A DNA stretch of 64,000 bases from Clostridiales bacterium. Its GTDB lineage: Bacteria > Bacillota > Clostridia > Christensenellales > DTU072. The position numbers were made by a program, and so were the translations under genes. Each line of letters starts with the position of its first letter. The first letter of the stretch is position 1. The stretch covers positions 18,924 through 82,923 of the forward strand of contig DUUO01000015.1 of assembly GCA_012841525.1 (NCBI GenBank), written 5' to 3'. The notes under the pieces are model-generated. The model worked only from the letters and a program-made list of their open reading frames with translations. It searched no databases and was not told the DNA's origin. Below, in pieces: positions 28,678 through 64,000 of this stretch.

Positions 28678-31600
28678 TTATGGATATATCTCATTTTCTG
28701 GTATTTCTGATAGAGTGTAGCCAATAAAATCAAAGTTTCTATATTTATATAAGCCAAACTCTGAAATCGTTGCTTTTATATCGTTAAATTCCATTTTCAT
28801 AGTATAACAAGAAACATCATTATAATAAGAACCTTCTTCATTACTATAATTATAATTTACAATCCAATTATCCTGATTCCCATATTTTTCTGGCAAATAG
28901 AAAGTATATTCATTATTATCAATATAAAAATATACTAGGGTACAATAAATCTCACCTGAAGCATACTCTTCTACAAGGCCATTTGGCAACGAAGCTGCAT
29001 CTACAGTAATTTCTTCTCCTAAAGATATTTTAATAGTATATTCAACATCTGGACTTAAAGTTATTGGTATATTTTGCACCACAGAAGATTTAATAACTTC
29101 TACAATAGACAAATTGCCTTCTTCATCAACTTCTTCTTTTCTCATAACACTTTGATAACTAAATTTAATAGATGTGCTTGACAAATCAAAGGTTAATTTA
29201 TTGTTGTTATTTATAATATCTTCTAAGATAATTGTTGATTTTGCATTTTCACCTTCGCTGTCAATTTTATATTTAAAGTTAGCGTACCCAGTTTCTAGTA
29301 TATCTCTTTCAGGAGTTTTTCTAAATTCTTCTATTTCTTTAGTTGTGCCTAAAGCATCTATTTGTGTTTCTTTTGATGCTTCAATTAAGTCTTCTCCATT
29401 TACAATTAATCTGTTTTGATTAACATCATGTGTGTAATTAAATATAACATCTTTAATTATTGCTCTACCAAAAGCAAAGTGTGCCTCAAATGTATTACTC
29501 AAAGTTGATGCTATATCATTCAATAAAGGAATTCCCAAAATCTTTATATTATCTTCATATAATACTAAACTTAATCCAGTTTCAGTTTTTAATATAGTTA
29601 TTTGATAATCTTTTTGTGCTTCAAAATCGATGTTTTCACTTAATTTATCATATTTATTACCATTTTTATGATATATGCCAGGTGCATTTTCGTCATCAAC
29701 ATACAATGTATTGCTTATTACTATAGCGGAATTTGTAGCATTATTTTTAAATAACATTATTTCAAATTTTGTACGCTCTTTTTTAACTTTAAATTCAACA
29801 TCGTAGTTTTTCAAGCCATCTGGATCATCTGGGTTGGTAGGTCTGCCAATTAATGGGTTATCGTTTGATACATTTAATGAATCAAATAATTTAAATGTCA
29901 TAGACACGCTTGAAACATTTTGTTCTGATGGTTCAAATTTAAACGTTCGCCCCATATCTTCCCCAATATTTAATTCTCCATTATCGCTAGTGTCAGGATT
30001 TACAATATTAAACCTAGGAGCATTAAAGTCACTTCCAAGTAAAATTTTATTATCTGGATCATTATCTAAATAATAGTAGAGGTCTGAATTGTAATCTGGG
30101 TTAGAATTTTCTAGTTGACCGCTAGTTATTATATTATAATATTTGAGCCACCTATAAGTTAACAATTCTTGGCTATTTCCGATTGACATATCTCCATCAA
30201 AATAAAATGAATTTGCTTGTGGATTAACCTTTATAGTTCCGTTTGCATCATTAGTATAAGTGACTGAATAATCAAAGTATTTATTATCGTTTGTATTGCC
30301 AGATTGATAATAATAAGCATATGCTAAAAGTCTATCAATCAATACAAGTTCGCTACCTTCTTCCTTGTAGGCATATATTTCTAATTTGTTTGCACCAAAT
30401 TTTAAATTGAATGAAGTTAACGATTCATCACATTCTTCACCGTTTAAGTAATACTTAAGTGTAACATCTTGTGCAATTAAGTCTTTATTTATTACTTTGT
30501 CATATCCTAAGCTAGCATTTTTTACAATTGAATTAAATTCAGAAGAAAGAACTAATTTAGATCCACCAACATCATAAAATCCTTGATTCGCTAAAGACAT
30601 TCTTACAATTTTTATATCTAAATTTGCACTTAAAACACCAATACCAACGGGATCTGGATATACTGTTGTGGGCTCTATTCCTTTATTGAAGTACATTTCT
30701 GTTTCGCTATTTTCTTTGAAACTTAAATAAATTAAATTGTTTAGGCTAATTGCATTTGTTTGACTATTATCAACATCAACATATATCATCATATTTGCCT
30801 TATCATGGTAGAAATTAAATGTATGCAAATAGCCATCAAAAATAGAATGTATTACAAAAGGCATAGAATAATATATTTGTTCTATTTCAATAAAGTCACC
30901 ACCATCTTCTAATTCGTAATAAACTCTATGTTCTAGTACAAAGTCTTGGCCGTTATCCAAATAATATTTATCATACACTTTATCGTTATTGTCCATTCTA
31001 AACAATAAAACTGAATGCTTTTTCTTTCTTGTATAACCAGGGTATTTTATGCTAGGCTCATTTACATCTTTAATAAAATGACCTAACACAAAACCTAAGG
31101 CAATTGACTTTTCATTGTCTGCAATTTTTTTGGCAGAAAATGTAAAACTTAATTTATCATATATTTCCGATCTTGCTACATCATTGTCAAAATCATATGC
31201 TTCAAAATATTTATCATATAATGATGAACTATCATCTTCAAGTACATGAGTTAGTTCTCTCATTCTATAAGGAATTGAGTCTCCTAAATACTCTTTATTT
31301 TCCATATCTTGCATAGTTTGACTGGTCTTTTCCTTAAATATTAATGGCAACATTTTTTCCATAGAAAGCCTTTCAGTTGTAAATGTTTTCCTTATATATT
31401 CGGCAGGCATTGTACCATTAAACAGAAAATAATCTGGATAGTCCGTTGCTGTTTCTAAAGCATTGTCATCAAGATATTCATTACTCTTAAACTTTAGTAT
31501 AACTGGATATACTGTATTAATTGTATTAGGTGCTATGGGCTCCAATGAAAGATTAGGATATTGTTTATTCCCTAAATTGAATTTATATTCTTCTCCTATT

Positions 31601-41273: not shown

Positions 41274-41318
41274 AAAAAAACCATAATTTATCTATAAAAA
41301 TTCATAGATATATTATGG
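41274..41318 (-). terminator. candidate Rho-independent terminator for the RAYT-like gene
   Basis: CCATAAT (41281..41287) pairs with ATTATGG (41312..41318), with inner arms TATCTA/TAGATA. On the minus strand the hairpin is followed by T7 (plus-strand A7 at 41274..41280). Confidence 0.5.
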
Positions 41319-41446
41319 AAAAATTCAAAGTTTTTATTAAATTTAATTTTAAGCATTTTTAACTTCTATAAAATAACAAGCAATTCATAGATAGATATGG
41401 AAAAATTCATAGTTTTTATTATACTTAATATTAAGCATTTCTAACT
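41300..41446. repeat. two copies, about 85% identical, of a roughly 65-bp segment with an 83-bp period; the proximal copy contains the last 16 nt and stop codon of the RAYT-like gene
   Basis: 41300..41365 aligns with 41383..41446 (AATTCATAGATA..GGAAAAATTCAWAGTTTTTATTA..TAAGCATTT..TAACT). Confidence 0.85.
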
Positions 41447-42756: not shown

Positions 42757-42974
42757 AACTATCCTCCAACACGGCACTTTATATAATTATATCATTATAA
42801 ACACTAATATGTTAATAGATTGAGACTAGACATTAATTCTAAACATCTAGCCCATCCATTTTTTATTTATTTTTTACATACTGTGCATAATAAATTCTTT
42901 TTATTTTTATACCTCATTATCACAAATTTTAATAACTTATTTATCTAGTCCTTATCAACATTTAAAGTTTCTTC

Positions 42975-46474: not shown

Positions 46475-46586
46475 AACAACAACCTCTCCAAAATTTAATT
46501 TTTATATAACATTTTCACAAGCATAAAATTATATACATGTTAAAAATTTTCATATTTTAAACATTTTCTTATAATTGACTGATAAA

Positions 46587-46691
46587 TCATTACTTATTTA
46601 TTAATTACTTTTTAGAAACACATTTATGCTTTAAATTATACAGTCATTACTTATTTATTAGTCGCTTTTTTAGAAACACATTTATGTTTTA
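46587..46691. repeat. two copies of a roughly 47-bp segment with a 57-bp period; the proximal copy overlaps the stop codon of the 1282-aa lipoprotein gene
   Basis: 46587..46633 aligns with 46644..46691 (TCATTACTTATTTATTA...CTTTTTAGAAACACATTTATGYTTTA). Confidence 0.85.
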
Positions 46692-50736: not shown

Positions 50737-52341
50737 TTATTTTGACATTTTTTCTCTTCTATATTTTTGAGCCTTATCATATTCAAAATGAGCATTTTTA
50801 AGACTAAATTTCATTGACGCTGGATGAGCCTTAAGTTTGCAACTGTCAACCAGTTCTAAAGGACAATATATTTTCCCCATGTATTCCAATGTAGGAATAA
50901 AATCGTCAACTCTCTTCCTAAAATTCATATAATCTTTTTCTTCCTCTGGAGTCCAAGCAACTTCACTAAAAGCAAATAATCTTGGATACATTTGAAATTG
51001 CAATCTCTCCAAACTAAAAATCCATTCAGTCCATAATGCACACTCAACGCCTAATATTCCTTGACAATCTTTTAATCCATATTTTTCATGACTATATTCA
51101 TAAGTCGTTTTTAGATTATTTTGAAGATATGTCATATCAAAGTAAAAAGCTTGATGCTTGCTAATTATTGCTTCTCCACCAGATTCTAAATGTTCTAAAA
51201 CTCTTTTATCGTTGTGATATGTCCAATATTGAACAACAATTGAACTATCAAGTTTTTTTGATTTTAAAATTTCATTCCAACCAATTAATTTTTTGTTTTT
51301 TCGTTTTAAGTAAACTGCTAACTTATTGTTGACATAACCTTGCAAATCTTCCTCTCCAGAAAGATTTTCTCTTTTTATAACCTCTTGACAACATGGGCAT
51401 TTTTTCCATTTAGCCTTTGGTACTTCATCGCCGCCAATATGAAAATATGGAGCGTCAAAAAGTTCAGAAAGTTCATCTATAACATCATACATAAACTCAT
51501 AAGTACTTTCTTTGCCTGCACAAGCAATAACTTTTGCAAATTCAAAATGTACTGGCGATACTTCAATTTGCTTACCTTCACAACTTAATTCTGGATATGA
51601 GGCTATTGCCGCTACAAAATGAGCAGGAAAATCAATTTCAGGTACTATCATAATGTTTCTTTCTTTTGCATATGCTACAATATCTTTTATTTCTTCTTGG
51701 GTATAAAATCCTTCATGTGGCGTGTTGTCAACTGCTTTTAAATTGCGCCAAGCTATGTTTTGGGTTCCTCGTCTATAGGAACCAATTTTAGTGAGTTTGG
51801 GATATTTTTTTATCTCTATTCTCCAACCAACATTATCTGTTAAATGCCAATGAAAAACATTTAACTTAAACATAGCCATCATATCTAAAAGCTCTTTAAC
51901 AACAGTAGGACCGAAAAACCACCTGCTTTCATCTAGCATAAGACCTCGCCATTTATTTGCTGGCAAATCTTTTATATATACCGAATGCATGCTAAGACTA
52001 TCTGCATTATTTAATATGTCAATTTTTGTCAATTGTCTGATGGACTGCACTGCATAAAAAGCTCCTGCTTTTGTTGAATGTTTTACTACCAAAGTATCAG
52101 GAGTACAATCTATAATATATTCTTCTTCGTCTAAATTTATATCAATGATAAATTTAATGCTGGCTTTTGTTTCATCATCTATTGTTTTCACATTGAAATT
52201 ACAATGTTTGTTAATTAATTCATTAAATGTCTTAACAGCAAATGTTGCTTTTTCATTTGCATAAATTTTTGTATCATTATTGATAAAAAACTCACCGTAT
52301 CTTGTCTCAAATTTTGCGGGCTTTGGTATTAATTTTATCAT
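50737..52341 (-). CDS. GH20 beta-N-acetylhexosaminidase with no signal peptide
   Basis: Motifs FHWHLTDNVGWRIEIKKYPKL and HIGGDE (catalytic D-E pair). The start is trimmed from a TTG at 52347 to the ATG at 52341, which follows AAGGAG. The N-terminus MIKLIPKPAKFETRYGEF is not hydrophobic. Confidence 0.88.
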   Translation of the reverse strand: MIKLIPKPAKFETRYGEFFINNDTKIYANEKATFAVKTFNELINKHCNFNVKTIDDETKASIKFIIDINLDEEEYIIDCTPDTLVVKHSTKAGAFYAVQSIRQLTKIDILNNADSLSMHSVYIKDLPANKWRGLMLDESRWFFGPTVVKELLDMMAMFKLNVFHWHLTDNVGWRIEIKKYPKLTKIGSYRRGTQNIAWRNLKAVDNTPHEGFYTQEEIKDIVAYAKERNIMIVPEIDFPAHFVAAIASYPELSCEGKQIEVSPVHFEFAKVIACAGKESTYEFMYDVIDELSELFDAPYFHIGGDEVPKAKWKKCPCCQEVIKRENLSGEEDLQGYVNNKLAVYLKRKNKKLIGWNEILKSKKLDSSIVVQYWTYHNDKRVLEHLESGGEAIISKHQAFYFDMTYLQNNLKTTYEYSHEKYGLKDCQGILGVECALWTEWIFSLERLQFQMYPRLFAFSEVAWTPEEEKDYMNFRKRVDDFIPTLEYMGKIYCPLELVDSCKLKAHPASMKFSLKNAHFEYDKAQKYRREKMSK

Positions 52342-52548
52342 TCTCAATTCTCCTTTGCATGTATTAACCTATTTTATATTTTTCTGAACTTAATATGTTC
52401 TTTTATTATATTTTATTCTCTTGATATCAATAATAGCCTTATATTATATTTAATATTTTTCCGAGCTGATATTAATGTCTATAATGTTTTTATTTTCTCC
52501 GTTGATTCTTAACTATTATATAAGTTGCTCCTTTTCGTGAATATTATG

Positions 52549-53916
52549 TTATTTCCTTTTTCTTAACTCAACATAATCTTTTCTATGTGCTACTGTTTTA
52601 TATGCGGGCCTAATTATTTTCCCTGCATTTGAAAGCTCTTCTATTCTATGAGCAGACCAACCAGAAATACGAGATATTGCAAAAACAGGTGTATATAACT
52701 CTATTGGAAGTCCTAACAATTTATAAATAAAACCTGAATAAAAGTCTATATTTACGCAAACACCTTTATATATATTACGTTTTTCTGCAATAACTTCTGG
52801 TGCAAGAGTTTCTACTAATTTATATAATTCATATTCTTCTTCATAACCTTTTTCAATTGCTAATGGTTTTACAAAACCTTTAAGTATTCTTGCTCTTGGA
52901 TCGTTTTTAGAATAAATAGCGTGTCCCATTCCATAAATTAATCCTTTTTTATCAAAAGCTTTTTTATCTAATATTTTCGCTAAATAATCCCTTACTTCAC
53001 CTTCAGTTCTATTTGGAGCATGTTTTGCAAGATCTTCCATCATTTTTACAACTTGTGCATTAGCACCACCATGTCTTGGCCCTTTCAAAGAACCCAGCGA
53101 TGCGGCCATTGCAGAATATGAATCTGTTCCAGAACTTGTAACTAAATGGGTTGCAAATGTAGAGTTATTACCACCACCGTGTTCTGCATGTAAAACTAAA
53201 CATAAGTCTAATAATTTTGCTTCTAATTCACTATATTCACTATCTGGTCTCAATAAATGCAAAACATTTTCCGCTGTGCTTTTATTTACATCTGGCTGAT
53301 GAATAATTAAAGTTCCATCATCAAAATAATGCTTATAAACTTGATATCCATAAACTGATAGCAATGGAAATCTAGATATTAATTTGAGTTGCTGTTGCAA
53401 TACATTTGCAATAGAAATATCATCTGGATTTGAATCATATGCATACAATGTCAAGACACTTCTTGCTAAAACATTCATCATGTCTACTGATGGCCTTTTC
53501 ATTATGACATCTCTTACAAAACTTAGTGGTAAGTCTCTAAATTCTCCTAAAATTTGATTAAATTCTGCAAGCTCTTTTTTTGTCGGTAACTTGCCAAACA
53601 AAAGCAAATATGTTGTCTCTTCAAAGCCAAATCTATTGTCCTTTACAAAACCAGAAACAATATCATAAATTGAATATCCGCGATAATATAATTCTCCATC
53701 GGCAGGAGCTTCATTTCCATTTTTATCAATACTTTTTGCTTTAATTTCAGATATTTCGGTTAGACCTACAAGCACACCTTTACCTGATAAATCTCTAAGT
53801 CCCCTTTTGCAATCATATTTATCATATAAGCTAGAATCAATCATTGTGCTTTTTTCTGCAACTTTTGATAATTCTTTAATTTTATTGCTTAGGTTTGCGT
53901 TTAATTTTTTATCCAT
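52549..53916 (-). CDS. gltA: citrate synthase
   Basis: 455 aa with LHAEHGGGNNSTF, GPRHGGANAQV and the GMGHAIY-type motif GLIYGMGHAIYS. RBS GGAGGAG. Confidence 0.9.
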   Translation of the reverse strand: MDKKLNANLSNKIKELSKVAEKSTMIDSSLYDKYDCKRGLRDLSGKGVLVGLTEISEIKAKSIDKNGNEAPADGELYYRGYSIYDIVSGFVKDNRFGFEETTYLLLFGKLPTKKELAEFNQILGEFRDLPLSFVRDVIMKRPSVDMMNVLARSVLTLYAYDSNPDDISIANVLQQQLKLISRFPLLSVYGYQVYKHYFDDGTLIIHQPDVNKSTAENVLHLLRPDSEYSELEAKLLDLCLVLHAEHGGGNNSTFATHLVTSSGTDSYSAMAASLGSLKGPRHGGANAQVVKMMEDLAKHAPNRTEGEVRDYLAKILDKKAFDKKGLIYGMGHAIYSKNDPRARILKGFVKPLAIEKGYEEEYELYKLVETLAPEVIAEKRNIYKGVCVNIDFYSGFIYKLLGLPIELYTPVFAISRISGWSAHRIEELSNAGKIIRPAYKTVAHRKDYVELRKRK

Positions 53917-54087: not shown

Positions 54088-57000
54088 TTATTTTTCATAA
54101 ACCTGCCTAAACTTAACATATTGTTTTTCTTTTTTCTTTTTAACAGCCATTTTAATGATGATAGATAATATAATTATTATGGCCATTCCTGCTAAAGCAA
54201 TTCCAGCATACATTAGATATGGTGGTTTATCTTCAACAAAAACTACATATTCAATATTTTCTCCTTCAACTATTATTTGTCCATTTTCTACTGTTGCATT
54301 TACATATGAGACATTATTATTTATATCTACAATCATCAACATAACATTTTCTAAATCTGCATATTCTTCTGTTGCTTCGAAAATTATTTTATCAGCACCT
54401 ATCATTTGTTGAACTTCTTTATCTTTTTCTCCTTTAACTTGCAAAACCATTTTTGCTTTTTTATTTGAAAAATCTTTGTTAGTTTTTGATAATGCTTTGA
54501 TTTGTGAATTTGTTTGAGAAAGTCTTTTTTGGTCTGTTGTTTCTTTTAAACTTATAGTAATTTCTGGGTTATAATTTCCATAAAACACAGCTTTTATACT
54601 ATCTTCATCTTCACTATCTGATGACATTTCATGTCTATTAACAATAATGTTACCTGCTATGTAATTGAATTTATAGTTTGTAGATTCTCCTCCAGACGGT
54701 TTGACAGTAGAAGAATACACTCCAGGCTTTGTTGGTAGTATACACGTTGGAACTTTTTCTAAATTGGTTTCATTTTCGCCATTAATAAAGCCAATATACT
54801 CAATATTACCCTTTTCTGGGACTTCATTATCTTTGTACGTCATATCTAATAATTTTACTTCTAGATTTACTTTTCCTATGGTAATTTGCGTACTCTCCAT
54901 TATTTTTTCTTGATTACCAGATTTAAAGTAATAATTATGCCCTTTGAGTTTTATCGAAATGTTGTAAGTGCCAGCATTTTTTAGCTCTCCAGAAACAATA
55001 ATTTCAAAGTTGTCGTCTGAAATTTCCTCATCATATTCTTTTCCTTTTATCAATAATGAAGTAACTTCTCCTATACCATAAGTTCTTCCTCGATAAACTA
55101 AATTAGGAACATTTGTAAATTCTGCTATTGCTTCTCTTTTTTGTGGTTTTATAGTTACATCAAATTCAGTTACAGCCTCATAGCTTGATAATGCCCTATA
55201 TTCAGAAGAATCTATTCTAAACTCCATAGTTCTAGAAAGCGTTTCTGAATTTTTGAAATCAAGCTCTTGAGATAAAGCACTTTCAGTCCATTTAACTTCG
55301 CCACTCACTGTTACTTCTTCCCAAGAACTAGTAGATGCATCATATGTTTTCACATAAAATTTAGCAGTTATATTATCAATCTCATCATTACTTAGATTTG
55401 TTAAAACTGGTTTTTCTATAGGCTCTAAATCTTTAATTATTACATATGCCTTTTTAATGAATAATTTGCTATCGGAAGTCGTAACGAAATTAACAACGTA
55501 GTTTTCACAATTTATAGATAAATCATTTGCTAAATAATATGTATATCCCTCAATTCTTACTGATTCACCACTTGCTCTTTCCAGTTCATATGTAAATTCG
55601 AAATCACTAACTTTGTCTTGATATTTGAAACCAGTTACAGTAAACTCGGGCACTGGATCTTCTGCACCATAATTTTTTTCTGCCCTAACAAATGAAAATG
55701 TCAAATTAGCAGGGTTAATAATATATTTATGACCTTTTGTATCTAATGTTACGTTAAGATTTGGATTGCTCTCTAATAAATTTCCAATTTCAATATCATA
55801 CTCACCAACATTTATACCTTCTTGGCGTGAAAGTGTTCCTACTATTTCTATATCTAAGTCTTCTACATTTAAATCTTCATCACCTATTTTAGTAAATGCA
55901 GTATATGAAATTTCTATGTCTTCTCCATAAGTAGTTTCAATATTTTCTAAAATGTTAATTGTAACATCTCTTTTAACTATTGCAAGATTTGAAAAAACTA
56001 CTTCATTTTGAAATTCCACAACATTTGATGTAGCGCTATCTGCTATAATTCTTAACCTATATTGTCCAATATCATATTTGTTATTGATATCTAACGGTGA
56101 AAACACATTTTCATTTGCTTTTGAAATCCTAATTGATGGTGCAACAAAGCCAATTGGTAACTCTGTAAAACCTTCAACTGAAAATTTTGGCTCTATTATT
56201 TGTCCATATTTAATTTCCAAATCTTCAATTTTTAATATTGCACTAGATTTTGACACTTCCAATAAAAATGGCTCAGAAGTAACAGGAAAATAATTATCAT
56301 CGCCTTCTCTTTTTGCAGTAACAACAAAAATTCCGAATTTTGTTATATAAAGTGTGCCGTCTTCTAAAATTTCGCCTTCTGCAGTATTTCTTTCATCCTC
56401 TTCATTGATACTGTAAATAAAATTCCCTATGAAGCCACCTTCTGCTTCAAAAATATAACTTTCATTAATATTATATGAATATTGATTTGAAGAAATAATA
56501 TTAACAGCACCTTGATTTGCTTTACTTACAACAATTTCTCGATTTAAACTTGTTGAAAGAACCAAATATTTACAAGTATTATTGTTTTCATCTAGAGTAT
56601 AATTTTCATCTTCAAAGTCAATTGCTTCGATTAAATATGTACCTGCATCTTTTATTGCATCAACAATTTCATCATTTAATTTTATTGTATACAAAACTTC
56701 TTTTTCATTGCCCAACTTTATTTCGGCACCATTTCGATCAACATATTTTGGAATTAATTTCAATTTTACTTCCTTAACATTTTCATCATAAATTAAATTA
56801 TCAGCATTAAAATATTCGATCTCAACTTTTCGTTTCTCTATGGTTGTTACAACGTCGCCTGAAAATTCTTCAGTATCTCCAGTTTGCTCTGTAAAGATTA
56901 TATCGAAATATGATTCTTTACTCTCATCTACAAAAGAAACTTCAACCTTAAATGTCCCTGGCATACTAATATTGATACTTTCGCCAGTAATTCTTGTATA

Positions 57001-60000
57001 ATTAAACTGAATATCGCCTCTATTTATTAATGATTTGCCATCAACATTTGCATTTACTATAGAAACCTTTATATCTGGTCCATTCCCATCGTATTCTTTT
57101 TCTAAATCGACAATGTCAGATATTGGAAGATAAATTTTTCTTTTTAAAATTTTAGCACTAACCTCTTTTTCTTCTTCTCCTTGCTTAATTTTATAGTTTC
57201 TTGATGAGGAAGTGTAACCAATATCATGAATAGACAATCTAACTGTTGCTTGTGTTAATCCAGGAATTTCTCCATTATATTTAATTGTGGCATTAATAAT
57301 GACTTTATTTTTATCAACATCATAAATATCTGGAACTTTAGTGTTATCCACGGTCGTTTTTTCAAATGTGCCCGTTATTCCGTTATATTCTTTTGTCGTA
57401 TTAATTGCCTCTTCATTTATGATTATTTCTTTTTGTGTTATTTTATACTCTATTTGTTTTTTACCTAGATATATCTTTGTTGTGTTGTCCTCACTAGATA
57501 ACATATATATTATGAAGTCCAAATAATAACTACTTATTGTCGCAGTATTTGCATCTTTTGGCGCAATTCCTTCATAATTTACTTTTATTCCTTCTTTATT
57601 TATTTTTTCATAATGCACTAAAGCATACAAAGGTTTACCAAAATCATTGTTATCTTGATCTTTATTAAATTTGTAGTTTTCTGATAAATTGGTATCTGCT
57701 TCAATGGGCTCTCCACAGTAAACATGAGTATGAGCACCAGAATTTTCTCCGAAAAATCCAGATTGAAAAGTAATTGATTTAAATTCAAATCTAATTTCGC
57801 TATAGCTCTCTTTTAAGCTTCCATACCTTTCTCCAAAAAGCACATCTTTAAATCTTATTTTGCTATAAAAATTGTCAACAACTAAATTTTCATATGTTAA
57901 ATCTAAATAATCAGATGTCGCACTATTTTCAATCCAGCCAGTTATATCACTAAGATAAAAACCACTTTTTAAATCAATTGAAAAATTAACACTTTGCCCT
58001 ACATAAAAGTTTATCTTTCTTTCTTCAATAGTTGCATCGTCAGCTTTTGTTCTAATCATAATCTCTTTAACATATCTTGCAAAAAGCCTTTGTTCTTCAT
58101 TAGAATTGGAAGTAAATAAAGAAGTCTTTGAAGGTATTGTATAAAAATTATTTGGTTCGATCTTTGCACTCTCTGCTACCTCTTCATTTAAATATCTATA
58201 TTCGATGTTTAATAAAGAATCAGGTGCAGTTGTAATTTTAAAAGTCGCTCTTTCACCATTTGCTGTTGTTATTATTTCGAGTGTAGGTTTACTTTTGGGT
58301 TCTGTACCTTCGCCTTCCCAATTTGTATCTAAAAATATATTGCCTATAAGATTTAAGTAGTTATCTAGAAAAAGTTGATCGTGCGAAACAAAATGCCATG
58401 CATTAAAACATTTCTCATCATCTAAGGGTCCATAATCTTTTCCAATTATGCCGCCAATAGAAATGCTATCTAAAGTACCTTCTGCTTCGGTATTAAGTTT
58501 TCCATAAAACATTACTGTTTGAATTTCTGACTCTGGACCTGAATTTTCACCAATTATGCCGCCAGCATTAGTGTTTCGAATAATGTTTTTAACTTTTGTT
58601 TGAATAAAAATATTTTCAAACTTAGAATTTTTGGCATATCCTACTAATCCACCAACTGTGTTAAGACCAATGCCATCTACAGTGGTGTTATGTGAAAATC
58701 TTAAATTTTTTATAGTGGCATTTTCAACATTGTTAAAAAATCCTAAAGCGGTTGTCTCATAACCTAAATTTTCTTGTGCGATAGGTCTTTTTACATAAAA
58801 AGATGGAATTTCATTGTTGTTTCCATCAAATGTTCCCTTAAACGGCCTTTGAGCACCTGGTTGAAATATGCCAACTCCACTTAGTGCTTTACTAGGATCA
58901 TCCTTAAATTCAAGATTTGTTGAATTAAGTTTAATATATTTGTTTTCAAAAGAAATTCCTTTTGAAACATTATAACTAAACATATGAAACTGTTCGGTGT
59001 TATTTATCAAAAATGGGTTATAAGGTGTCCCCCAATCATTATAATAAGTTTCTGTATATCCAAAATATTTAACCGTAGCACTATACAGCACCATATGATT
59101 GTGCTTTTTGCCCTCTTCTCCTTGATCGCTTGTAATGAAACTTTTTAAATAAGGAGCAAATATGCCATCACCTTGCAGAACATTTCTCTCTCGTTGCCAC
59201 ATTTGTTCTTGCGTGCCAAACAAAAAGTAAATACTTTCTGTTTGATATTTTTCTAACAATATATTTTTTTCTTTTGCAGGGCCTAAGGATAAATTGCCTA
59301 TACTTTGTAGATCTGCATTATGACCTGGTATTTCTGTATTGTTATATTGAATCTTTTTTCTATAACCAAAAGAATTATTGTTTATTTTAGCATGGTCTGT
59401 TATTTCACTCTGTCCAATAAGAGCACCAGTTGTATTAGCATCATAAGCACCATTAAATTTTAAAATGCTGTAATTGTTTTCAATAGTTCCACTTTTATAA
59501 AAACCAATAAGACCACCTGCCGTCGCCACATTAACTTCCATATTTCCAGAAGAAAAACTTTGTACTACATTTCCACCATCGTTTACTGCAACTAAGCCAC
59601 CGCTTGTTGATTTCACACTAAAATTACCCGAAACAAAACATTGCTCAATGGTTCCTGAATTAATAATCGATATTCCGCCAATTTCACCTTGATTATGCAA
59701 GTTAACATTGTATAATCCTAGTTTTGAAACTTTACCTAAATTTCCTATTTTATAAAATAAGCCTCTAAATTCAGGATTGTTTTCGCTATTTATATTGTAA
59801 ATAATGTGATTATTGCCATCAAAATTTCCTTGAAATTCTTTTCCACCAGATAAACCTATTGTTTTTAACCCACCACCTTCAATATTGATATCGTTCATCA
59901 ACTTGAAGTATACACCCCCAAAATCTCTTGGATGTTCTGGATTTACGAGGTCATCATTTAATTGATTTAAATGTTCAAGAGTTGAAATTTGAATAGGATC

Positions 60001-60144
60001 TGATTCTGTTCCAGAGCCAGGACCATAATCAGCATATGCAATAAATAATTGGTTTGAATATATAGAAAAAACTAAGATTAAACTTATAAAAAGTAAAAAT
60101 GCAAAAATTACAGTTTTAATTTTTGATTTTTTTTCAAATGTCAT
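54088..60144 (-). CDS. giant (2018 aa) surface protein: signal peptide, GLUG-motif region, MBG/YDG-like modules and a C-terminal TM anchor with basic tail
   Basis: GLUG-type repeats include GGLVAVNDGGNVVQSF, AGGLIGFYKSGTIENNYS, VGGLVGYAKNSKFENIF, AGGIIGENSG and IGGIIGKDYG. MBG-type modules include TTYGEDIEISY...GTLSRQEGINVGEYDIEIGNLLESNPNLNV, EKNYGAEDPVPEF, KEYNGITG and EKEYDGNG. The C-terminus is YAGIALAGMAIIIILSIIIKMAVKKKKEKQ. RBS AAGGAG. Confidence 0.85.
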   Translation of the reverse strand: MTFEKKSKIKTVIFAFLLFISLILVFSIYSNQLFIAYADYGPGSGTESDPIQISTLEHLNQLNDDLVNPEHPRDFGGVYFKLMNDINIEGGGLKTIGLSGGKEFQGNFDGNNHIIYNINSENNPEFRGLFYKIGNLGKVSKLGLYNVNLHNQGEIGGISIINSGTIEQCFVSGNFSVKSTSGGLVAVNDGGNVVQSFSSGNMEVNVATAGGLIGFYKSGTIENNYSILKFNGAYDANTTGALIGQSEITDHAKINNNSFGYRKKIQYNNTEIPGHNADLQSIGNLSLGPAKEKNILLEKYQTESIYFLFGTQEQMWQRERNVLQGDGIFAPYLKSFITSDQGEEGKKHNHMVLYSATVKYFGYTETYYNDWGTPYNPFLINNTEQFHMFSYNVSKGISFENKYIKLNSTNLEFKDDPSKALSGVGIFQPGAQRPFKGTFDGNNNEIPSFYVKRPIAQENLGYETTALGFFNNVENATIKNLRFSHNTTVDGIGLNTVGGLVGYAKNSKFENIFIQTKVKNIIRNTNAGGIIGENSGPESEIQTVMFYGKLNTEAEGTLDSISIGGIIGKDYGPLDDEKCFNAWHFVSHDQLFLDNYLNLIGNIFLDTNWEGEGTEPKSKPTLEIITTANGERATFKITTAPDSLLNIEYRYLNEEVAESAKIEPNNFYTIPSKTSLFTSNSNEEQRLFARYVKEIMIRTKADDATIEERKINFYVGQSVNFSIDLKSGFYLSDITGWIENSATSDYLDLTYENLVVDNFYSKIRFKDVLFGERYGSLKESYSEIRFEFKSITFQSGFFGENSGAHTHVYCGEPIEADTNLSENYKFNKDQDNNDFGKPLYALVHYEKINKEGIKVNYEGIAPKDANTATISSYYLDFIIYMLSSEDNTTKIYLGKKQIEYKITQKEIIINEEAINTTKEYNGITGTFEKTTVDNTKVPDIYDVDKNKVIINATIKYNGEIPGLTQATVRLSIHDIGYTSSSRNYKIKQGEEEKEVSAKILKRKIYLPISDIVDLEKEYDGNGPDIKVSIVNANVDGKSLINRGDIQFNYTRITGESINISMPGTFKVEVSFVDESKESYFDIIFTEQTGDTEEFSGDVVTTIEKRKVEIEYFNADNLIYDENVKEVKLKLIPKYVDRNGAEIKLGNEKEVLYTIKLNDEIVDAIKDAGTYLIEAIDFEDENYTLDENNNTCKYLVLSTSLNREIVVSKANQGAVNIISSNQYSYNINESYIFEAEGGFIGNFIYSINEEDERNTAEGEILEDGTLYITKFGIFVVTAKREGDDNYFPVTSEPFLLEVSKSSAILKIEDLEIKYGQIIEPKFSVEGFTELPIGFVAPSIRISKANENVFSPLDINNKYDIGQYRLRIIADSATSNVVEFQNEVVFSNLAIVKRDVTINILENIETTYGEDIEISYTAFTKIGDEDLNVEDLDIEIVGTLSRQEGINVGEYDIEIGNLLESNPNLNVTLDTKGHKYIINPANLTFSFVRAEKNYGAEDPVPEFTVTGFKYQDKVSDFEFTYELERASGESVRIEGYTYYLANDLSINCENYVVNFVTTSDSKLFIKKAYVIIKDLEPIEKPVLTNLSNDEIDNITAKFYVKTYDASTSSWEEVTVSGEVKWTESALSQELDFKNSETLSRTMEFRIDSSEYRALSSYEAVTEFDVTIKPQKREAIAEFTNVPNLVYRGRTYGIGEVTSLLIKGKEYDEEISDDNFEIIVSGELKNAGTYNISIKLKGHNYYFKSGNQEKIMESTQITIGKVNLEVKLLDMTYKDNEVPEKGNIEYIGFINGENETNLEKVPTCILPTKPGVYSSTVKPSGGESTNYKFNYIAGNIIVNRHEMSSDSEDEDSIKAVFYGNYNPEITISLKETTDQKRLSQTNSQIKALSKTNKDFSNKKAKMVLQVKGEKDKEVQQMIGADKIIFEATEEYADLENVMLMIVDINNNVSYVNATVENGQIIVEGENIEYVVFVEDKPPYLMYAGIALAGMAIIIILSIIIKMAVKKKKEKQYVKFRQVYEK

Positions 60145-60395: not shown

Positions 60396-62834
60396 TTAGT
60401 TTTTTATTTTTTTCCTAAAGAGTTTAAAGCCTTCCACTGCAAAAAATACAATACCGTCATAAGGGCCAAGAGTTAATGGCTTTGTTATATCTATTGATTT
60501 TTCTTCTTGCTCAATACCTAAAAATGGAGCAAAGACTTTTTTGTTTGCTACACTAAAACCAAATTTAGTTTCAACACCTAATTCGAATTTAACCTTTTTA
60601 TTGCTGTAGTTAAAAACTGAAATCAATAAATTTCCATCGTTAGCAAAGCATGATGCATGAACATTGTTGTTATCAATTCTGATTGGATTTTCTTCATCCC
60701 AAAAACCATAAAATTTTGAGTTTACAAAATCATATTTACTGATACTTTTATAAAAATGATTTACCGATTCGCTTGATAGTGATTCGACACCATATTTTGG
60801 CAATCCTCCAAATAAAAGTGAAAGAGATATGGGGGTATTTGCATTAAATGTTGTCGCAACTCCATAAGGCGCACCAGAACACTCAAATAACAAAGCGTAT
60901 ATATCATAACTTAATTTCAATTTGTCACTATACCAAAGTTTGTCAATATAAGGTAAAACTTCAGTGTATAGGCATAGTGCAGATGAAAATGCATTTTCAT
61001 TGTTAAATTGATTAGTAAGTTCAAGCTCAATTACACCTTGATTTTTTTTAGATTTAGTAAGTGTCTTTTTGGCTCTTTCCATTGTAACTGAATCGATTGA
61101 TGGATTTTTCATAGATATACATCTAAGATTTAATGCATTTTGTAAAAAAGCAAGGCTTTCTATATAGTAATTATTTACACGAGACTGTGGTCTTAATAAC
61201 CATTGTTCATCTTTATATTTTTTGTTTTTATCTGCTTCAACATCTACAATAAAATTAAGTCCCAAAGGATTGTCAGAGGGTGAAATGTTTTCATTGTCAG
61301 TTCCTTTTAATAGAAGTTCATTTGAAAAACCATTAAAAACTTTTGTTATAGTGTTTTTTGAGCTTATTGATCTTAAACCATATCTAATTCCAACGGATAA
61401 ATTATTGTTTCTTGCATTAGATACAATTGCTAAAAGTCCATCTGCATCCTCTAAAGGATAGTTGAGATATTTGTAATATTTGATACCTGGAGATATAATT
61501 AAGTAATCCATATTTGCAGATTTTGAACTTTTAATTGCCTGAGCATAATCTCTAAACATTTTAGCCTCACCAATTCTTAATCCAAGCATATTATTAGACT
61601 TCAACTCATTGCAAGGGGTTAAATTTATAGCGAATTCTAAAGTTAAATCTTTATCTTTAAATGCTACAATAACACCTGTCGATACAGTTACTTCTACCCC
61701 CTCATTTGTTTTCATTATTTTAATGTTGCCATTACCATAATTTACCCATAGATTTGAAGGAAGGTCTTTTTGTATTGCATTATAACTTGAAATATTTTGA
61801 TTGAAAGAAGCAGGAGCAAGTTTAATTTTAGCACCACAATTTATATCACCAATAAAAAAGTTTTGAACTGACTTTTCTATCTCCAAATTGCAATTTAATA
61901 AAAAATTCTCATCAATTTTTTGTGCAATTTTTTCTAATCCCATAAAATATGAAGATGATTTAAAAAACATTTTTAATGAAAGATTTGATATCAAAAACTC
62001 ATCTGGAGTAGAAATATTTATTTTATAAGCTATTGAACCATCATATTTAACTTTACTTTCTATAACTACTTTATTATTATCAATTAAACTTTCAGATTTA
62101 GTGTTAACATATGAAATTTTAGGAGAAATTTCACATTCTTTAAACTCCAATTTTTTACCCTCTATCTCTAAAGACATTGGTTTATAGAATAAACTTTTTT
62201 GAACATCATTTTGTAATGAATTTGAATTATCGTAATAACTCTGAGAATTTTCAAGCATTCCGTTAGAGTTGACAATTAATTTATGTCCTAAAATATTAAT
62301 TTTATTATCGTCACAAACAATTCTTTTATGTCCCTCTATTACATCATTTGACCAAGATTTTTTTGAGTTTAACCACTTTAATCTTGAAAAGCTTGATTCA
62401 TCATGGAATCCTTCATCAAAAACCAAATCATCAGTTAAATTAAACACCAATGCCACCTTATCATTTCCTATGGTGACTTCAGTTTTATATGTTTGTAGTT
62501 TGGCCTTTTTGAAAGAAACCCCAATATAAATTGGTTGTAAAACATTTTCTATTAAAGATATTTTAGAAGAAAACTTTTTACCGAAAGAATTATATCCTTC
62601 TGTGTTTAAACATGTTACAGCATTTTCAATTACATCATCATCACTAATCAAGGCACTTGTTTTTACAGAAATGTTTTGTAAATTATAATCTGCAAGCAAG
62701 ACTAATTTGACAATAAAATATTCATATCTTGAAGGATTAAATGTATATTCATTTTCAGCTGTTAAATCATTTAGAATTGAAAGATCTTTGGGATCTTTTA
62801 TTATTATTGATCTATTAAAGTTGTATATTTCCAT
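60396..62834 (-). CDS. hypothetical 812-aa cytoplasmic protein; candidate glycoside hydrolase-like enzyme by context only
   Basis: Intact ORF with no signal peptide (MEIYNFNRSIIIKD). The N-terminal half looks beta-rich and the C-terminal half mixed alpha/beta. I recognise no catalytic motif. It lies directly downstream of a GH2 gene. Confidence 0.5.
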   Translation of the reverse strand: MEIYNFNRSIIIKDPKDLSILNDLTAENEYTFNPSRYEYFIVKLVLLADYNLQNISVKTSALISDDDVIENAVTCLNTEGYNSFGKKFSSKISLIENVLQPIYIGVSFKKAKLQTYKTEVTIGNDKVALVFNLTDDLVFDEGFHDESSFSRLKWLNSKKSWSNDVIEGHKRIVCDDNKINILGHKLIVNSNGMLENSQSYYDNSNSLQNDVQKSLFYKPMSLEIEGKKLEFKECEISPKISYVNTKSESLIDNNKVVIESKVKYDGSIAYKINISTPDEFLISNLSLKMFFKSSSYFMGLEKIAQKIDENFLLNCNLEIEKSVQNFFIGDINCGAKIKLAPASFNQNISSYNAIQKDLPSNLWVNYGNGNIKIMKTNEGVEVTVSTGVIVAFKDKDLTLEFAINLTPCNELKSNNMLGLRIGEAKMFRDYAQAIKSSKSANMDYLIISPGIKYYKYLNYPLEDADGLLAIVSNARNNNLSVGIRYGLRSISSKNTITKVFNGFSNELLLKGTDNENISPSDNPLGLNFIVDVEADKNKKYKDEQWLLRPQSRVNNYYIESLAFLQNALNLRCISMKNPSIDSVTMERAKKTLTKSKKNQGVIELELTNQFNNENAFSSALCLYTEVLPYIDKLWYSDKLKLSYDIYALLFECSGAPYGVATTFNANTPISLSLLFGGLPKYGVESLSSESVNHFYKSISKYDFVNSKFYGFWDEENPIRIDNNNVHASCFANDGNLLISVFNYSNKKVKFELGVETKFGFSVANKKVFAPFLGIEQEEKSIDITKPLTLGPYDGIVFFAVEGFKLFRKKIKN

Positions 62835-62899: not shown

Positions 62900-64000
62900 T
62901 TAATAAACAATTCTATCTTCATCAATTGCAGTAAAAGGAATGATTTTAAAAGCGAACTTATATTTTCTATCCTTTAATAAGTATTTCTTTAATGGTCTAG
63001 GGCCACAACTATTGCTTCCTACCCCACACATTTCTCCATCAATTGAAATATAACTAACATCATCAAAAACAAGATCTTCTCTATGTCTTATTTTTGCTAA
63101 AGCCTCATCAGATATTTTTTTAGCACCTAGATTAAATGGTTTTTCTAATGCTAAAAACATCAAGCCTTGACCTTTTTCATTTTTTACTGATGCATATCTC
63201 ACATCGGTTCTATTACCAGATTCTTGAGGTTTAATATAATGAAACATAAAATCTTCAACCTTTAATTTATAAAGGCCTAAACGAGATTGACACTTAAAGT
63301 CTGGATAATTTTCATATGGTCCACAACCATAATAATAAATCTCATTAAACTCCTCTTTTAATGCAATAGTTCTTCCAAATCGCGGCAATGTTTCGTTGCT
63401 CAAATGCACTTTAATTAATTCTGTTGATAAAGTTATTACACCATTTGATTCAACAATTGTGTTTTCGATAACTTTAAATAAAGTCCTCCCCTTTGCATTG
63501 ACAATATTTTTTTCAGTTTTAATTTTAACTTCTGTTTTATCACTTGTAACGACACATTTTTTTACAATAAAAGATGTTTCGTCATATCCTAGTTTCATCC
63601 ATTTTTTCTTTACATACATATCGTTATCTATTGGTGCACGATAAATATTTGTATAAAAATTACCTTTTTGATTTTGTTTTAATGGTTTATCTACTAAATA
63701 ATTAATATCTCCGACTTTATACGATGAAATACATCCAAGCGTCTTATTAAAAATCAATTCTCCATTATCAAAGTTTATTAAAATAAATGTATCTTTTTCA
63801 GTAACTACAATATCTTTTCCATTAGATAACTGAATTTGTGATAAGGTTTCATTAATTCTCAATTCTTCAGTTGCCACTATTTTGTCTTTATCAAAATAAT
63901 CTATATGTAAAACTATATCTCCAGAATGAATGTCAATGTTAATATTATATTCTTTCGAAGACATTGGTTCTATATCACTTGGAAATTCAACTTCAAAAGA
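62900..64000 (-). CDS. lacZ: GH2 beta-galactosidase, C-terminal part (partial; the frame is open to the window end)
   Basis: Bgal small-chain / domain-5 motifs: IYRAPIDNDMY, YYGCGPYENYPDFK and IKPQESGNRTDVRY. The frame upstream of the ORF-track ATG (63964) has no stop through 64000 (SFEVEFPSDIEP-M...), so the gene continues off-window. Confidence 0.8.
   Translation of the reverse strand, partial: SFEVEFPSDIEPMSSKEYNINIDIHSGDIVLHIDYFDKDKIVATEELRINETLSQIQLSNGKDIVVTEKDTFILINFDNGELIFNKTLGCISSYKVGDINYLVDKPLKQNQKGNFYTNIYRAPIDNDMYVKKKWMKLGYDETSFIVKKCVVTSDKTEVKIKTEKNIVNAKGRTLFKVIENTIVESNGVITLSTELIKVHLSNETLPRFGRTIALKEEFNEIYYYGCGPYENYPDFKCQSRLGLYKLKVEDFMFHYIKPQESGNRTDVRYASVKNEKGQGLMFLALEKPFNLGAKKISDEALAKIRHREDLVFDDVSYISIDGEMCGVGSNSCGPRPLKKYLLKDRKYKFAFKIIPFTAIDEDRIVY

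What the first reader, a model, noticed from the sequence alone, without database searches (positions are those of the whole stretch)
28678..64000. System-level hypothesis: a surface 'capture' array of non-catalytic giant proteins coupled to purely intracellular glycan breakdown
Downstream of the tRNA, 35 kb on one strand combine three giant stalk proteins (7418 aa in total) that have no recognisable catalytic domain. Every recognisable glycosidase in this block lacks a signal peptide where its N-terminus is visible, namely GH20 and the 812-aa protein; the N-terminus of the GH2 enzyme is off-window. The block also holds a GPH symporter with a kinase, and the Leloir genes galK/galT and lgt, needed to lipidate two of the stalks, lie upstream in the same window. 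One reading is a host-glycan or mucin-type Gal/HexNAc harvesting strategy. In this model long lectin-tipped stalks bind glycans or glycan-bearing surfaces, oligosaccharides are imported, and degradation is cytoplasmic. I do not know of a described system with this combination of parts. It could equally be coincidental juxtaposition of adhesins and sugar genes.
Basis: inference. Interest (0 to 1): 0.65.

Follow-up and report, generated by a model that had tools for sequence, protein, structure and literature searches.

The report
Giant surface proteins beside cytoplasmic sugar genes
An uncultured biogas-reactor bacterium keeps genes for very long, anchored surface proteins next to genes for importing small sugars and splitting them inside the cell; part of this arrangement is old and conserved, but nothing yet shows that the surface proteins bind sugars.

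Summary
The parts list is correct. On the minus strand lie three anchored giants of 4118, 1282 and 2018 aa, three glycosidases without signal peptides (GH2, a GH123-family protein, GH20), a GPH symporter and an FGGY kinase.

The organism is a 28% GC Clostridia lineage. Its closest relatives come from biogas fermenters, so a host-mucin reading is not favoured.

Comparative genomics splits the block in two.
- **Module B** (1282-aa lipoprotein, kinase, GPH, 448-aa orphan, giant lipoprotein) persists in about six lineages whose flanks differ. In four of these the lipoprotein gene lies 35-65 bp ahead of catabolic and transporter genes, which looks like an operon.
- **Module A** (GLUG protein, GH2, GH123, 2018-aa protein, citrate synthase, GH20) is conserved only where unrelated flanking genes are conserved too. 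That is uninformative.

No lectin, CBM or enzyme domain was found in any giant. The distal head of the 2018-aa protein is a GLUG β-solenoid, closest to the IgA1 protease domain and the SRRP adhesin. The distal 1019 aa of the 4118-aa protein have one homologue family among 1.84 billion representatives.

Verdict: adhesin-like stalks beside an ordinary import-then-hydrolyse sugar set. Functional coupling is plausible for Module B and unproven overall.

The parts
28678..41034 (-). G4118: a 4118-aa lipoprotein (4113 aa if it starts at the ATG). It has at least 10 Big_3-like Ig domains in residues 45-1091, then MBG-type repeats, then an orphan membrane-distal region of about 1100 aa.
   Evidence: The distal 1019 aa have one non-self homologue family among 1.84e9 representatives. 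They have no Pfam or PDB sequence match. Identity to homologue P0107 falls from 39-46% in most of the proximal 3000 aa (30% and 34% in two 300-aa windows) to 26-30% in the distal part.
41280..41318 (-). Terminator-like hairpin (dG -15 kcal/mol, followed by T7) in the 396-bp gap before G4118. A 51-nt direct repeat lies next to it (41314-41364 and 41396-41446).
41431..42777 (-). U448: a 448-aa cytoplasmic orphan with a basic, low-complexity N-terminus. In the related loci that carry it, it lies between the GPH gene and the giant gene.
   Evidence: No Pfam, NCBIfam or PDB match, even with a 6-sequence profile. Orthologues at 31-77% identity occupy the same position in L011, L013, L014, L017, L032 and L063.
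42975..44738 (-). GPH:cation symporter (MFS_2), 587 aa, with about 10 TM-like segments found by a crude hydropathy scan.
   Evidence: Pfam E 1.3e-70. TIGR00792 scores above its cutoff. Hydropathy scan. Orthologues are 60-68% identical in many Clostridia.
44927..46474 (-). FGGY-family sugar kinase, xylulokinase-like but below the equivalog cutoff.
   Evidence: It is 74% identical to the kinase inside the L063 operon.
46689..50537 (-). L1282: a 1282-aa lipoprotein made of Big_3-like and MBG-like repeats. Its N-terminus is paralogous to that of G4118.
   Evidence: The orthologue lies 35-65 bp ahead of the first catabolic gene of the transporter cluster in L013, L014, L017 and L063.
50737..52347 (-). 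GH20 β-N-acetylhexosaminidase with no signal peptide. The HIGGDE motif is present.
52549..53916 (-). Citrate synthase. It is a bystander gene that keeps its position in the block in the relatives.
54088..60144 (-). T2018: a 2018-aa protein with a signal or anchor segment, two tandem GLUG β-solenoid modules (about residues 40-260 and 370-550), MBG_2-type repeats and a C-terminal TM anchor.
60396..62834 (-). 812-aa GH123-family (PF19543) protein with no signal peptide. The catalytic motif was not verified.
62900..64000 (-). C-terminal part of a LacZ-type GH2 β-galactosidase. The full protein is 1031 aa, is cut by the window end, and has no signal peptide.
4752..8977 (.). Context only: lgt (-), galK (-) and galT (+). 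They lie about 35 kb from the block, among housekeeping genes.
28438..28512 (+). tRNA-Glu(CTC), convergent with the end of G4118. It marks the boundary of the block.

Best explanation
The 35 kb are a vertically inherited chromosomal neighbourhood in an uncultured, low-GC Clostridia lineage whose closest relatives come from biogas fermenters. Two kinds of genes are interleaved.

1. **An ordinary 'import, then hydrolyse in the cytoplasm' sugar set.** It comprises a GPH cation symporter, a LacZ-type GH2 β-galactosidase, a GH123-family protein, a GH20 β-hexosaminidase and an FGGY kinase. The galactose released would feed the Leloir genes encoded elsewhere.
2. **Four membrane-anchored, repeat-built surface proteins** with no recognisable enzyme or lectin domain. 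Two are N-terminally lipidated Ig-like stalks (1282 and 4118 aa). One is C-terminally anchored and carries two distal GLUG β-solenoid heads (2018 aa). A small GLUG protein lies just off-window.

The most likely working (inference) is as follows. The giants are adhesins that hold the cell against a particle or a neighbouring cell. Small Gal- or HexNAc-glycosides become available there, released by other organisms' enzymes, since the block encodes no secreted hydrolase. The GPH carrier takes them up and they are split inside the cell.

**Shown:** the gene content, the predicted topology and the conserved gene orders. **Inferred:** adhesion, the ligand, the substrate and any coupling. I put about 0.4 on real functional coupling for the module L1282 - kinase - GPH - U448 - G4118, and less for the GH2/GH123/GH20 half.
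For: - **Cytoplasmic enzymes and transporter:**
- **Topology of the giants:**
- **Repeat architecture:**
- **GLUG head:** 93 homologues were found, most carrying PF07581. The AF2 model has well-predicted modules at pLDDT about 85-95. The best PDB matches are the S. pneumoniae IgA1 protease domain (E 3e-4, about 240 columns) and the L. reuteri SRRP adhesin β-solenoid.
- **Distal end of G4118:** it diverges fastest, 26-30% identity against 39-46% for most of the proximal part. This is the pattern expected of an adhesin head (inference).
- **Module B conservation:** it is kept in L011, L013, L014, L017, L063 and, in part, L032, with different outer flanks. Gaps from the lipoprotein gene through the catabolic genes to the GPH gene are mostly 1-65 bp. 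These loci form one GPH clade of 8 of 79.
- **GH2-GH123 pair:** the genes are 65 bp apart in the window. They stay adjacent down to 31% GH123 identity, with GLUG proteins on both sides.
Against: - No CBM or lectin domain was found in any giant.
- The fold of the G4118 tip is unknown: the single-sequence AF2 model had pLDDT 30.
- Conservation of Module A comes with conserved unrelated neighbours: citrate synthase inside the block, and PHO4, PhoU, HD hydrolase and a LOG-like gene outside it. It may be plain collinearity.
- Window gaps of 170-400 bp, promoter-like sites before U448, L1282, T2018 and the citrate synthase gene, and a terminator-like hairpin before G4118 suggest separate transcription units. 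The promoter scan as a whole was not above chance.
- The GPH orthologue occurs without giants in about 70 other Clostridia. This includes L012, which lies inside the same GPH clade.
- In the distant relatives the operon partners are a GH63-like enzyme, a class III aminotransferase and class II aldolases. These point to a small-molecule glycoside, for which a 1250-aa 'capture' protein is hard to rationalise.
Confidence: 0.5

Rival explanations
1. Coincidental juxtaposition. The giants are general envelope or adhesion proteins. The sugar genes are independent, and the shared order is only historical collinearity on the leading strand.
For: - Citrate synthase and the phosphate, HD and LOG-like flanks are conserved together with Module A.
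- GC skew indicates the minus strand is the leading strand throughout 24-64 kb.
- Gaps are long, with a terminator-like hairpin before G4118.
- GPH orthologues occur mostly without giants.
- L012, inside the same GPH clade, lacks the module.
- No glycan-binding domain was found.
Against: - Module B survives in lineages with different flanks and very different GC content and protein composition.
- The lipoprotein gene there lies 35-65 bp ahead of the catabolic and transporter genes, which looks like co-transcription.
- GLUG proteins flank GH2-GH123 in two clades.
Confidence: 0.35
2. The giants are not non-catalytic. A cryptic depolymerase sits in the GLUG β-solenoid heads or in the orphan distal region of G4118. 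It would release oligosaccharides at the surface, and these are then imported. On this reading the block is a Gram-positive PUL with unrecognised enzymes.
For: - Right-handed β-solenoids are the usual fold of tailspike depolymerases, polysaccharide lyases and GH28, GH55 and GH87 enzymes. Such proteins appear among the weaker Foldseek matches, at E 0.015-1.
- About 1100 aa of G4118 have no assignable fold.
- This would close the logical gap of how a polymer becomes an importable sugar (inference).
Against: - The best structural matches are the non-catalytic GLUG domain of IgA1 protease and an adhesin binding region. The enzyme matches have probabilities of 0.04-0.44 and rmsd of about 11-25 Å.
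- No Pfam enzyme family matched, even at E<=1.
Confidence: 0.1
3. One reading: a host-mucin, HMO or glycosphingolipid Gal/HexNAc harvesting system with lectin-tipped stalks.
For: - The enzyme trio GH2 + GH123-family + GH20 fits β-Gal, β-GalNAc and β-GlcNAc termini. GH123 enzymes are β-N-acetylgalactosaminidases (PMC11087588).
- More distant Module-B relatives come from animal guts (L013 chicken, L017 roe deer, L063 sheep).
Against: - The records that name a source for the closest relatives are biogas-fermenter assemblies.
- The gut relatives that keep Module B lack the GH2, GH123 and GH20 genes at the locus.
- More distant GH123 homologues in gut metagenomes have no giant neighbours.
- No lectin domain was found.
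Confidence: 0.07

Closest known systems
Bacteroidota polysaccharide utilisation loci with surface glycan-binding lipoproteins (SusE/F-type SGBPs)
   Same: Both have N-terminally lipidated, Ig-like-domain surface proteins encoded beside a transporter and glycosidases. Both follow the idea of binding outside and finishing the breakdown after import (own knowledge of the Sus paradigm).
   Different: There is no SusC/SusD pair and no outer membrane. There is no recognised CBM-like binding domain and no surface endo-enzyme. The importer is a GPH symporter. The proteins are 3-10 times longer. It is an analogy only, not membership.
Gram-positive PULs and 'import-first' oligosaccharide use in Bacillota and bifidobacteria (transporter plus intracellular GHs)
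   Same: GH2 and β-hexosaminidases lacking signal peptides sit next to a sugar importer. Galactose would go to the Leloir genes.
   Different: Described loci usually pair ABC transporters with dedicated solute-binding lipoproteins and a regulator. They often also have a cell-wall-anchored multimodular GH (own knowledge). Here there is no recognised regulator and no solute-binding protein, and giant non-enzymatic proteins are present instead.
GLUG-motif β-solenoid domains: S. pneumoniae IgA1 protease (6XJA/6XJB/7UVL) and the L. reuteri SRRP binding region (5NXK)
   Same: The two distal modules of T2018 share the GLUG repeat (PF07581 homologues). They superpose on the IgA1 protease domain over about 240 columns at 18-20% identity, and they match the SRRP β-solenoid.
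   Different: T2018 has no M26 peptidase domain, no serine-rich repeats and no LPXTG motif. It is anchored by a C-terminal TM helix and carries a stalk of about 1300 aa of MBG-type repeats.
GH123 β-N-acetylgalactosaminidases (NgaP, CpNga123, BvGH123; PMC11087588)
   Same: There is a strong match to Pfam PF19543, which is used as the GH123 signature (PMC13355591).
   Different: No solved GH123 structure is detectable by sequence, even with a 7-sequence profile. The best candidate for the catalytic 'DE' pair reads N-E in the window protein. Activity is unverified.

Membership tests
Gram-positive PUL (co-located CAZyme + transporter + regulator) | At least one glycan-degrading CAZyme | tested here: met
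   GH2, GH20 and a PF19543/GH123-family protein are present. All are predicted to be cytoplasmic.
Gram-positive PUL (co-located CAZyme + transporter + regulator) | Carbohydrate transporter in the locus | tested here: met
   GPH:cation symporter; TIGR00792 scores above its cutoff.
Gram-positive PUL (co-located CAZyme + transporter + regulator) | Transcriptional regulator in the locus | tested here: not met
   No regulator family was found in any block protein. U448 is an orphan with no Pfam, NCBIfam or PDB match. A regulatory role for U448 is only a guess.
Sus-like PUL | SusC/SusD (TonB-dependent transporter plus lid lipoprotein) pair | tested here: not met
   No such families appear in the Pfam scans of any ORF of 100 aa or more that was not nested in a longer ORF.
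Lectin/CBM-tipped glycan-binding surface protein | A recognisable carbohydrate-binding module or lectin fold at the distal end | tested here: inconclusive
   There are no CBM or lectin hits in Pfam at E<=1 and none in PDB sequence searches. The T2018 head is a GLUG β-solenoid. The fold of the G4118 head was not obtained (pLDDT 30).
GLUG-motif protein (PF07581) | Repeated GGLxG-type motif forming a β-solenoid module | tested here: met
   Of 93 homologues, most are annotated PF07581. The consensus shows two tandem modules. AF2 module pLDDT is about 85-95, and Foldseek matches the IgA1 protease domain. The window sequence itself scores below the Pfam cutoff (15.1 against 20.5 bits).
M26 IgA1-specific metalloprotease | M26 peptidase catalytic domain (HExxH) | tested here: not met
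   No peptidase family was found in T2018 at E<=1.
Bacterial lipoprotein | Signal peptide ending in a lipobox with an invariant Cys | tested here: met
   G4118 has ...LVLFAC|Q and L1282 has ...LTLSSC|S. The Cys is kept in the orthologues of L011, L013, L014, L017 and L063 and in P0107. lgt is in the window. Lipidation itself was not shown.
GH123 | Family HMM match | tested here: met
   PF19543, E 4.2e-104, profile positions 189-966 of 969.
GH123 | Catalytic Asp-Glu ('DE') pair for substrate-assisted catalysis (PMC11087588) | tested here: inconclusive
   The only conserved [D/N/E]-E column pair reads N-E in the window protein and its 69% relative, and D-E in four others. It could not be placed on a solved GH123 structure.
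Operon (single transcription unit for the block) | Short gaps and no internal terminators or promoters | tested here: not met
   Gaps are 171-396 bp, except GH2-GH123 at 65 bp. There is a terminator-like hairpin before G4118. Promoter-like sites lie before U448, L1282, T2018 and the citrate synthase gene. There are no expression data.

The most novel reading that the evidence does not exclude
One Clostridia clade has evolved a Gram-positive counterpart of surface glycan-binding proteins. Lipid-anchored Ig-like stalks more than 1000 aa long are encoded at the head and tail of a GPH-symporter catabolic operon, with a dedicated orphan partner (U448). They capture substrate, or dock the cell onto a substrate-bearing surface, for an import-first strategy with no extracellular enzymes. 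The ligand-binding head would be a fold with no detectable relatives.
Probability: 0.25. Interest if true: 0.65.

Novelty: new variant of a known kind. Interest (0 to 1): 0.45.

Why it matters
If the coupling is real, it would be a non-Bacteroidota solution to the 'bind outside, digest inside' problem. It would use a secondary transporter and giant non-enzymatic lipoproteins. It would also give a function to a class of very large, fast-evolving surface proteins in poorly known digester and gut Clostridia, and a handle on an orphan 1100-aa head domain and an orphan 448-aa partner gene. If the coupling is not real, the block is simply adhesin genes next to a routine β-galactoside and β-hexosaminide pathway.

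Tried and rejected
- **Word-indexed homologue search with the G4118 tip.** It found nothing.
- **Exact look-ups of G4118 with either start codon.** Neither is on record.
- **PDB sequence searches.** Single-sequence and profile searches of the G4118 tip, U448 and the GH123-like protein gave nothing significant.
- **Single-sequence AF2 of the distal 740 aa of G4118.** pLDDT was 29.8, so the model is unusable and no fold search was run.
- **Three LamG/ConA-like jelly rolls in the tip.** This was my impression from reading the sequence. hhalign found no internal repeat among the tip segments, so I dropped it.
- **U448 as a degenerate HUH-transposase-like or DnaA-C-like regulator.** This too was an impression from reading. 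Pfam scans of all six orthologues at E<=10 did not support it.
- **A shared regulatory motif.** The exact 14-mer AATGTGAATTTATT lies before both L1282 and T2018. TGTGAATTT recurs five times before the T2018 orthologue in L004. The short motif is only about twice the chance count in this AT-rich DNA, and the 14-mer is not conserved in relatives. I left it as a lead.
- **Rfam.** Only the tRNA was found.
- **Generic terminator scan.** It found none in the gaps. A custom hairpin-plus-T-run search found one.
- **Substrate of the GPH carrier from its neighbours in 80 genomes.** The neighbours are too variable; GH2 lies directly upstream in only 3 loci.


Full report
**1. What is in the window**

The window has 26-32% GC. 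Its first 28 kb hold housekeeping genes: pepF, NAPRTase, dnaX, ybaB, recR, RNase J, serine-pathway genes, whiA, dnaE and uvrC. lgt-galK (minus strand) and galT (plus strand) lie at 4.7-9.0 kb. A single tRNA-Glu sits at 28438-28512.

From 28678 to the window end, every long ORF is on the minus strand. In order of transcription they are:
- GH2 (cut by the window end)
- an 812-aa PF19543/GH123-family protein
- a 2018-aa protein (T2018)
- citrate synthase
- GH20
- a 1282-aa protein (L1282)
- an FGGY kinase
- a GPH symporter
- a 448-aa orphan (U448)
- a 4118-aa protein (G4118)

An identical metagenome contig (JGI 3300002898, L001) supplies the rest of GH2 (1031 aa). Upstream of it is a 523-aa protein (TM523) with an N-terminal TM helix and GLUG-like repeats.

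**2. Checking the observation**

- 4118 + 1282 + 2018 = 7418 aa.
- A hydropathy scan finds hydrophobic N-termini only in the three giants and in TM523. GH2, GH123 and GH20 have none. T2018 also has a C-terminal TM segment.
- G4118 and L1282 end their signal sequences in LFAC and LSSC. The Cys is conserved in all orthologues seen.
- Pfam finds only Big_3, MBG_2 and MBG in the giants, plus a sub-threshold Glug hit. This held for pieces searched at E<=1.
- An iterative HMM counts at least 10 Big_3-like domains in G4118 residues 45-1091 and at least 8 in L1282. The three giants share repeat types.

'All on one strand' carries little weight. GC skew is uniformly negative from 24 kb onward, so the minus strand is the G-rich strand and, by the usual rule for Bacillota, the leading strand.

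**3. Organism and habitat**

The closest relatives carry GH123 at 69% and GPH at 81% identity. The records that name a source are biogas-fermenter assemblies, for example GCA_012800525.1 'Clostridiales bacterium AS21ysBPME_203'. NCBI labels one of them Christensenellales. The AS21 genomes belong to the biogas MAG catalogue (PMC7038595). This does not favour a host-mucin niche for this organism. More distant relatives that keep Module B do come from animal guts.

**4.

*Whole block.* The 69% relative has the entire order (L008 and L011 are on the same contig). A 54% relative (L010) has TM523 through to the start of the 1282-like gene, where its contig data end.

*Module A* is TM523 - GH2 - GH123 - T2018-like - citrate synthase - GH20.
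- It recurs in a second metagenome clade: L092, L094, L100, L113 and L117. Identities there are GH123 31-33%, GH2 52%, citrate synthase about 70% and T2018 24-28%. The signal segment and the C-terminal TM anchor of the T2018-like protein are kept where the contig shows them.
- L113 also shares the unrelated upstream genes with L001: PHO4, PhoU-like, HD hydrolase, a membrane protein and a LOG-like gene. The citrate synthase is conserved inside the block as well. This is general collinearity, so it says little about function.
- GH123 homologues at 27% identity or less, in gut metagenomes, have no giant neighbours.

*Module B* is the L1282-like lipoprotein - catabolic genes - GPH - U448 - giant lipoprotein.
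- It is found in L013 (Ca. Stercoripulliclostridium), L014, L017 and L063, and L032 shows GPH - U448 - giant on a short contig. The giants there are 24-27% identical, U448 is 31-43% identical, and the outer flanks differ.
- In these genomes the genes between the lipoprotein and GPH are a class III aminotransferase, two class II aldolases and, in L063, the orthologous FGGY kinase (74%). A Gfo/Idh/MocA oxidoreductase and a GH63-like (α/α)6 enzyme precede them.
- Gaps from the lipoprotein gene through to the GPH gene are mostly 1-65 bp, which looks like an operon.
- The window lineage has kept only the kinase between L1282 and GPH.
- On a GPH tree, the Module-B loci form one clade of 8 of 79. One member of that clade, L012, lacks the module.
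- About 70 other Clostridia have a 60-64% identical GPH with unrelated neighbours.

Module B is therefore a genuine, clade-specific gene cluster. Its association with the GH2/GH123/GH20 genes is recent and lineage-specific.

**5. Transcription signals in the window**

Gaps are 171-396 bp, except GH2-GH123 at 65 bp. One good terminator-like hairpin (dG -15 kcal/mol, followed by T7) lies between U448 and G4118, beside a 51-nt direct repeat. Promoter-like hexamer pairs lie before U448, L1282, T2018 and the citrate synthase gene. The scan as a whole is not above chance. The sequence favours several transcription units. No expression data were available.

**6. The heads of the stalks**

*T2018.* It is anchored by its C-terminus, so its N-terminus is the distal end.
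- This region found 93 homologues, most of them annotated PF07581 (GLUG). Some also carry the N-terminal region of M26 peptidases.
- The alignment consensus shows two tandem modules.
- The AF2 model, built with that alignment, has mean pLDDT 71.6. The two β-solenoid modules reach about 85-95.
- Foldseek against the PDB gives the S. pneumoniae and Gemella IgA1 protease domain (E 3e-4 to 8e-3, 235-263 columns, 17-20% identity) and the L. reuteri SRRP adhesin β-solenoid. Depolymerase-type β-helices appear only as weak matches.
- T2018 has no peptidase domain.

*G4118.* It is anchored by its lipidated N-terminus, so its C-terminus is the distal end.
- The last 1019 aa have no Pfam or PDB relatives.
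- In a full HMMER scan of 1.84 billion representatives they match only a fragment of the protein itself and one other giant lipoprotein, P0107 (3904 aa, 36% identity overall).
- Identity to P0107 is 39-46% in most windows of the proximal 3000 aa and 26-30%, with more indels, in the distal 1100 aa.
- Single-sequence AF2 failed, and no internal repeats were detected.

'Lectin-tipped' is therefore untested for G4118. For T2018 the accurate description is 'adhesin-like β-solenoid'.

**7. The enzymes**

- GH2 has the LacZ-type domain set, and the WSLGNE and CEFVHAMG motifs are visible in its sequence.
- GH20 has HIGGDE.
- The 812-aa protein matches PF19543 strongly, and PF19543 is used as the GH123 signature (PMC13355591). 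It matches no solved GH123 structure by sequence.
- β-N-acetylgalactosaminidases use a 'DE' motif (PMC11087588). The only candidate column pair reads N-E in the window protein. Its activity should be regarded as unverified.
- The kinase is xylulokinase-like but scores below the equivalog cutoff.

**8. Interpretation**

The enzymatic and transport half is a conventional cytoplasmic route for small β-Gal and β-HexNAc glycosides. The giants look like adhesins: Ig-like stalks with a fast-evolving distal head.

Several points weaken it:
- No glycan-binding domain was found.
- The conserved order includes bystander genes.
- The gaps are long and the signals suggest separate transcription units.
- The GPH carrier usually stands alone in other genomes.
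- Without an extracellular depolymerase, binding a polymer does not produce substrates for a GPH carrier.
- The relatives' operon looks aimed at a small glycoside.

My best reading is adhesion to a substrate-bearing surface, plus scavenging of small glycosides. I give it about 0.5 overall and about 0.4 for true functional coupling. Coincidental adjacency is at about 0.35. A cryptic surface enzyme is at about 0.1. The host-mucin version is at about 0.07.

**9. Novelty and score**

The components are known kinds: GH2, GH20, GH123-family, GPH, GLUG, and Big_3/MBG adhesin repeats. What may be new is the conserved cluster of giant lipoprotein, GPH operon, orphan U448 and giant lipoprotein, together with the orphan head domain. 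I rate it 'new variant of a known kind' with interest 0.45. It is a reasonable lead for transcriptomics and binding assays, not an established system.

Noticed in passing
window 41431-42777 (-); orthologues at L011:11823-13214, L013:11705-12988, L014:11663-12958, L017:11825-13138, L032:2492-3808: U448 is a 448-aa cytoplasmic orphan with a basic, low-complexity N-terminus. In all of these lineages it lies between the GPH gene and the giant lipoprotein gene. It has no Pfam, NCBIfam or PDB relatives, even with a 6-sequence profile. In L063 it is split into two ORFs.
   Followed up: partly
window 41314-41364 and 41396-41446; hairpin about 41280-41318 (-): A 51-nt direct repeat (90% identical) lies at the end of U448 and in the gap before G4118. 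Next to it is the only good terminator-like hairpin in the block (dG -15 kcal/mol, followed by T7).
   Followed up: partly
window 50688-50701 and 60253-60266 (-); L004:12433-13003: The exact 14-mer AATGTGAATTTATT lies just upstream of the -35-like hexamers before both L1282 and T2018. TGTGAATTT recurs five times in the 570-bp gap before the T2018 orthologue of the 69% relative. The short motif TRTGAATTT is only about twice the chance count in the window (18 against 9.2). It may be a shared regulator site.
   Followed up: partly
window about 46580-46688 (gap between L1282 and the FGGY kinase): An imperfect direct repeat of about 45 nt occurs twice in this gap (CATAAATGTGTTTCTAAAAA...TAATAAATAAGTAATGA).
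   Followed up: no
window 60396-62834 (-), residues 505-506: The best candidate for the GH123 catalytic 'DE' pair reads N-E (FSNELLLK) in this protein and its 69% relative. It reads D-E in four more distant homologues and E-E in one. No solved GH123 structure is detectable by sequence.
   Followed up: partly
L013, L014, L017, L063 (about 1-10000 in each locus): The distant relatives carry an uncharacterised catabolic cluster: Gfo/Idh/MocA oxidoreductase, a GH63-like (α/α)6 enzyme, a 1250-aa lipoprotein, a GSA-aminomutase-like class III aminotransferase, an FGGY kinase (L063 only), two class II aldolases and GPH. The substrate is unknown. The window lineage keeps only the kinase.
   Followed up: partly
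Their neighbours are highly variable and often housekeeping genes, which is unusual for a sugar carrier. GH2 lies directly upstream in only 3 loci.
   Followed up: partly
window 52549-53916 (-): The citrate synthase gene keeps its position between the T2018-like gene and GH20 in both clades (87-91% and about 70% identity). It is a clear bystander and shows that conserved order here need not mean shared function.
   Followed up: yes
L001:5097-6668 (just beyond the window end): A 523-aa protein with an N-terminal TM anchor and GLUG-like repeats lies directly upstream of GH2. It is conserved in that position at 26-29% identity in the second clade, and the gap to GH2 is 26 bp in L092 and L113.
   Followed up: partly
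window 4752-6940 (-): lgt and galK are co-oriented with a gap of only 8 bp, and galT is divergent from them. This is an odd pairing of a lipoprotein-maturation gene with a Leloir gene.
   Followed up: no
window 368-1240 (-), 12361-13524 (-), 17892-19382 (-): Three ORFs of 290, 387 and 496 aa in the housekeeping half have no Pfam match at E<=0.001.
   Followed up: no
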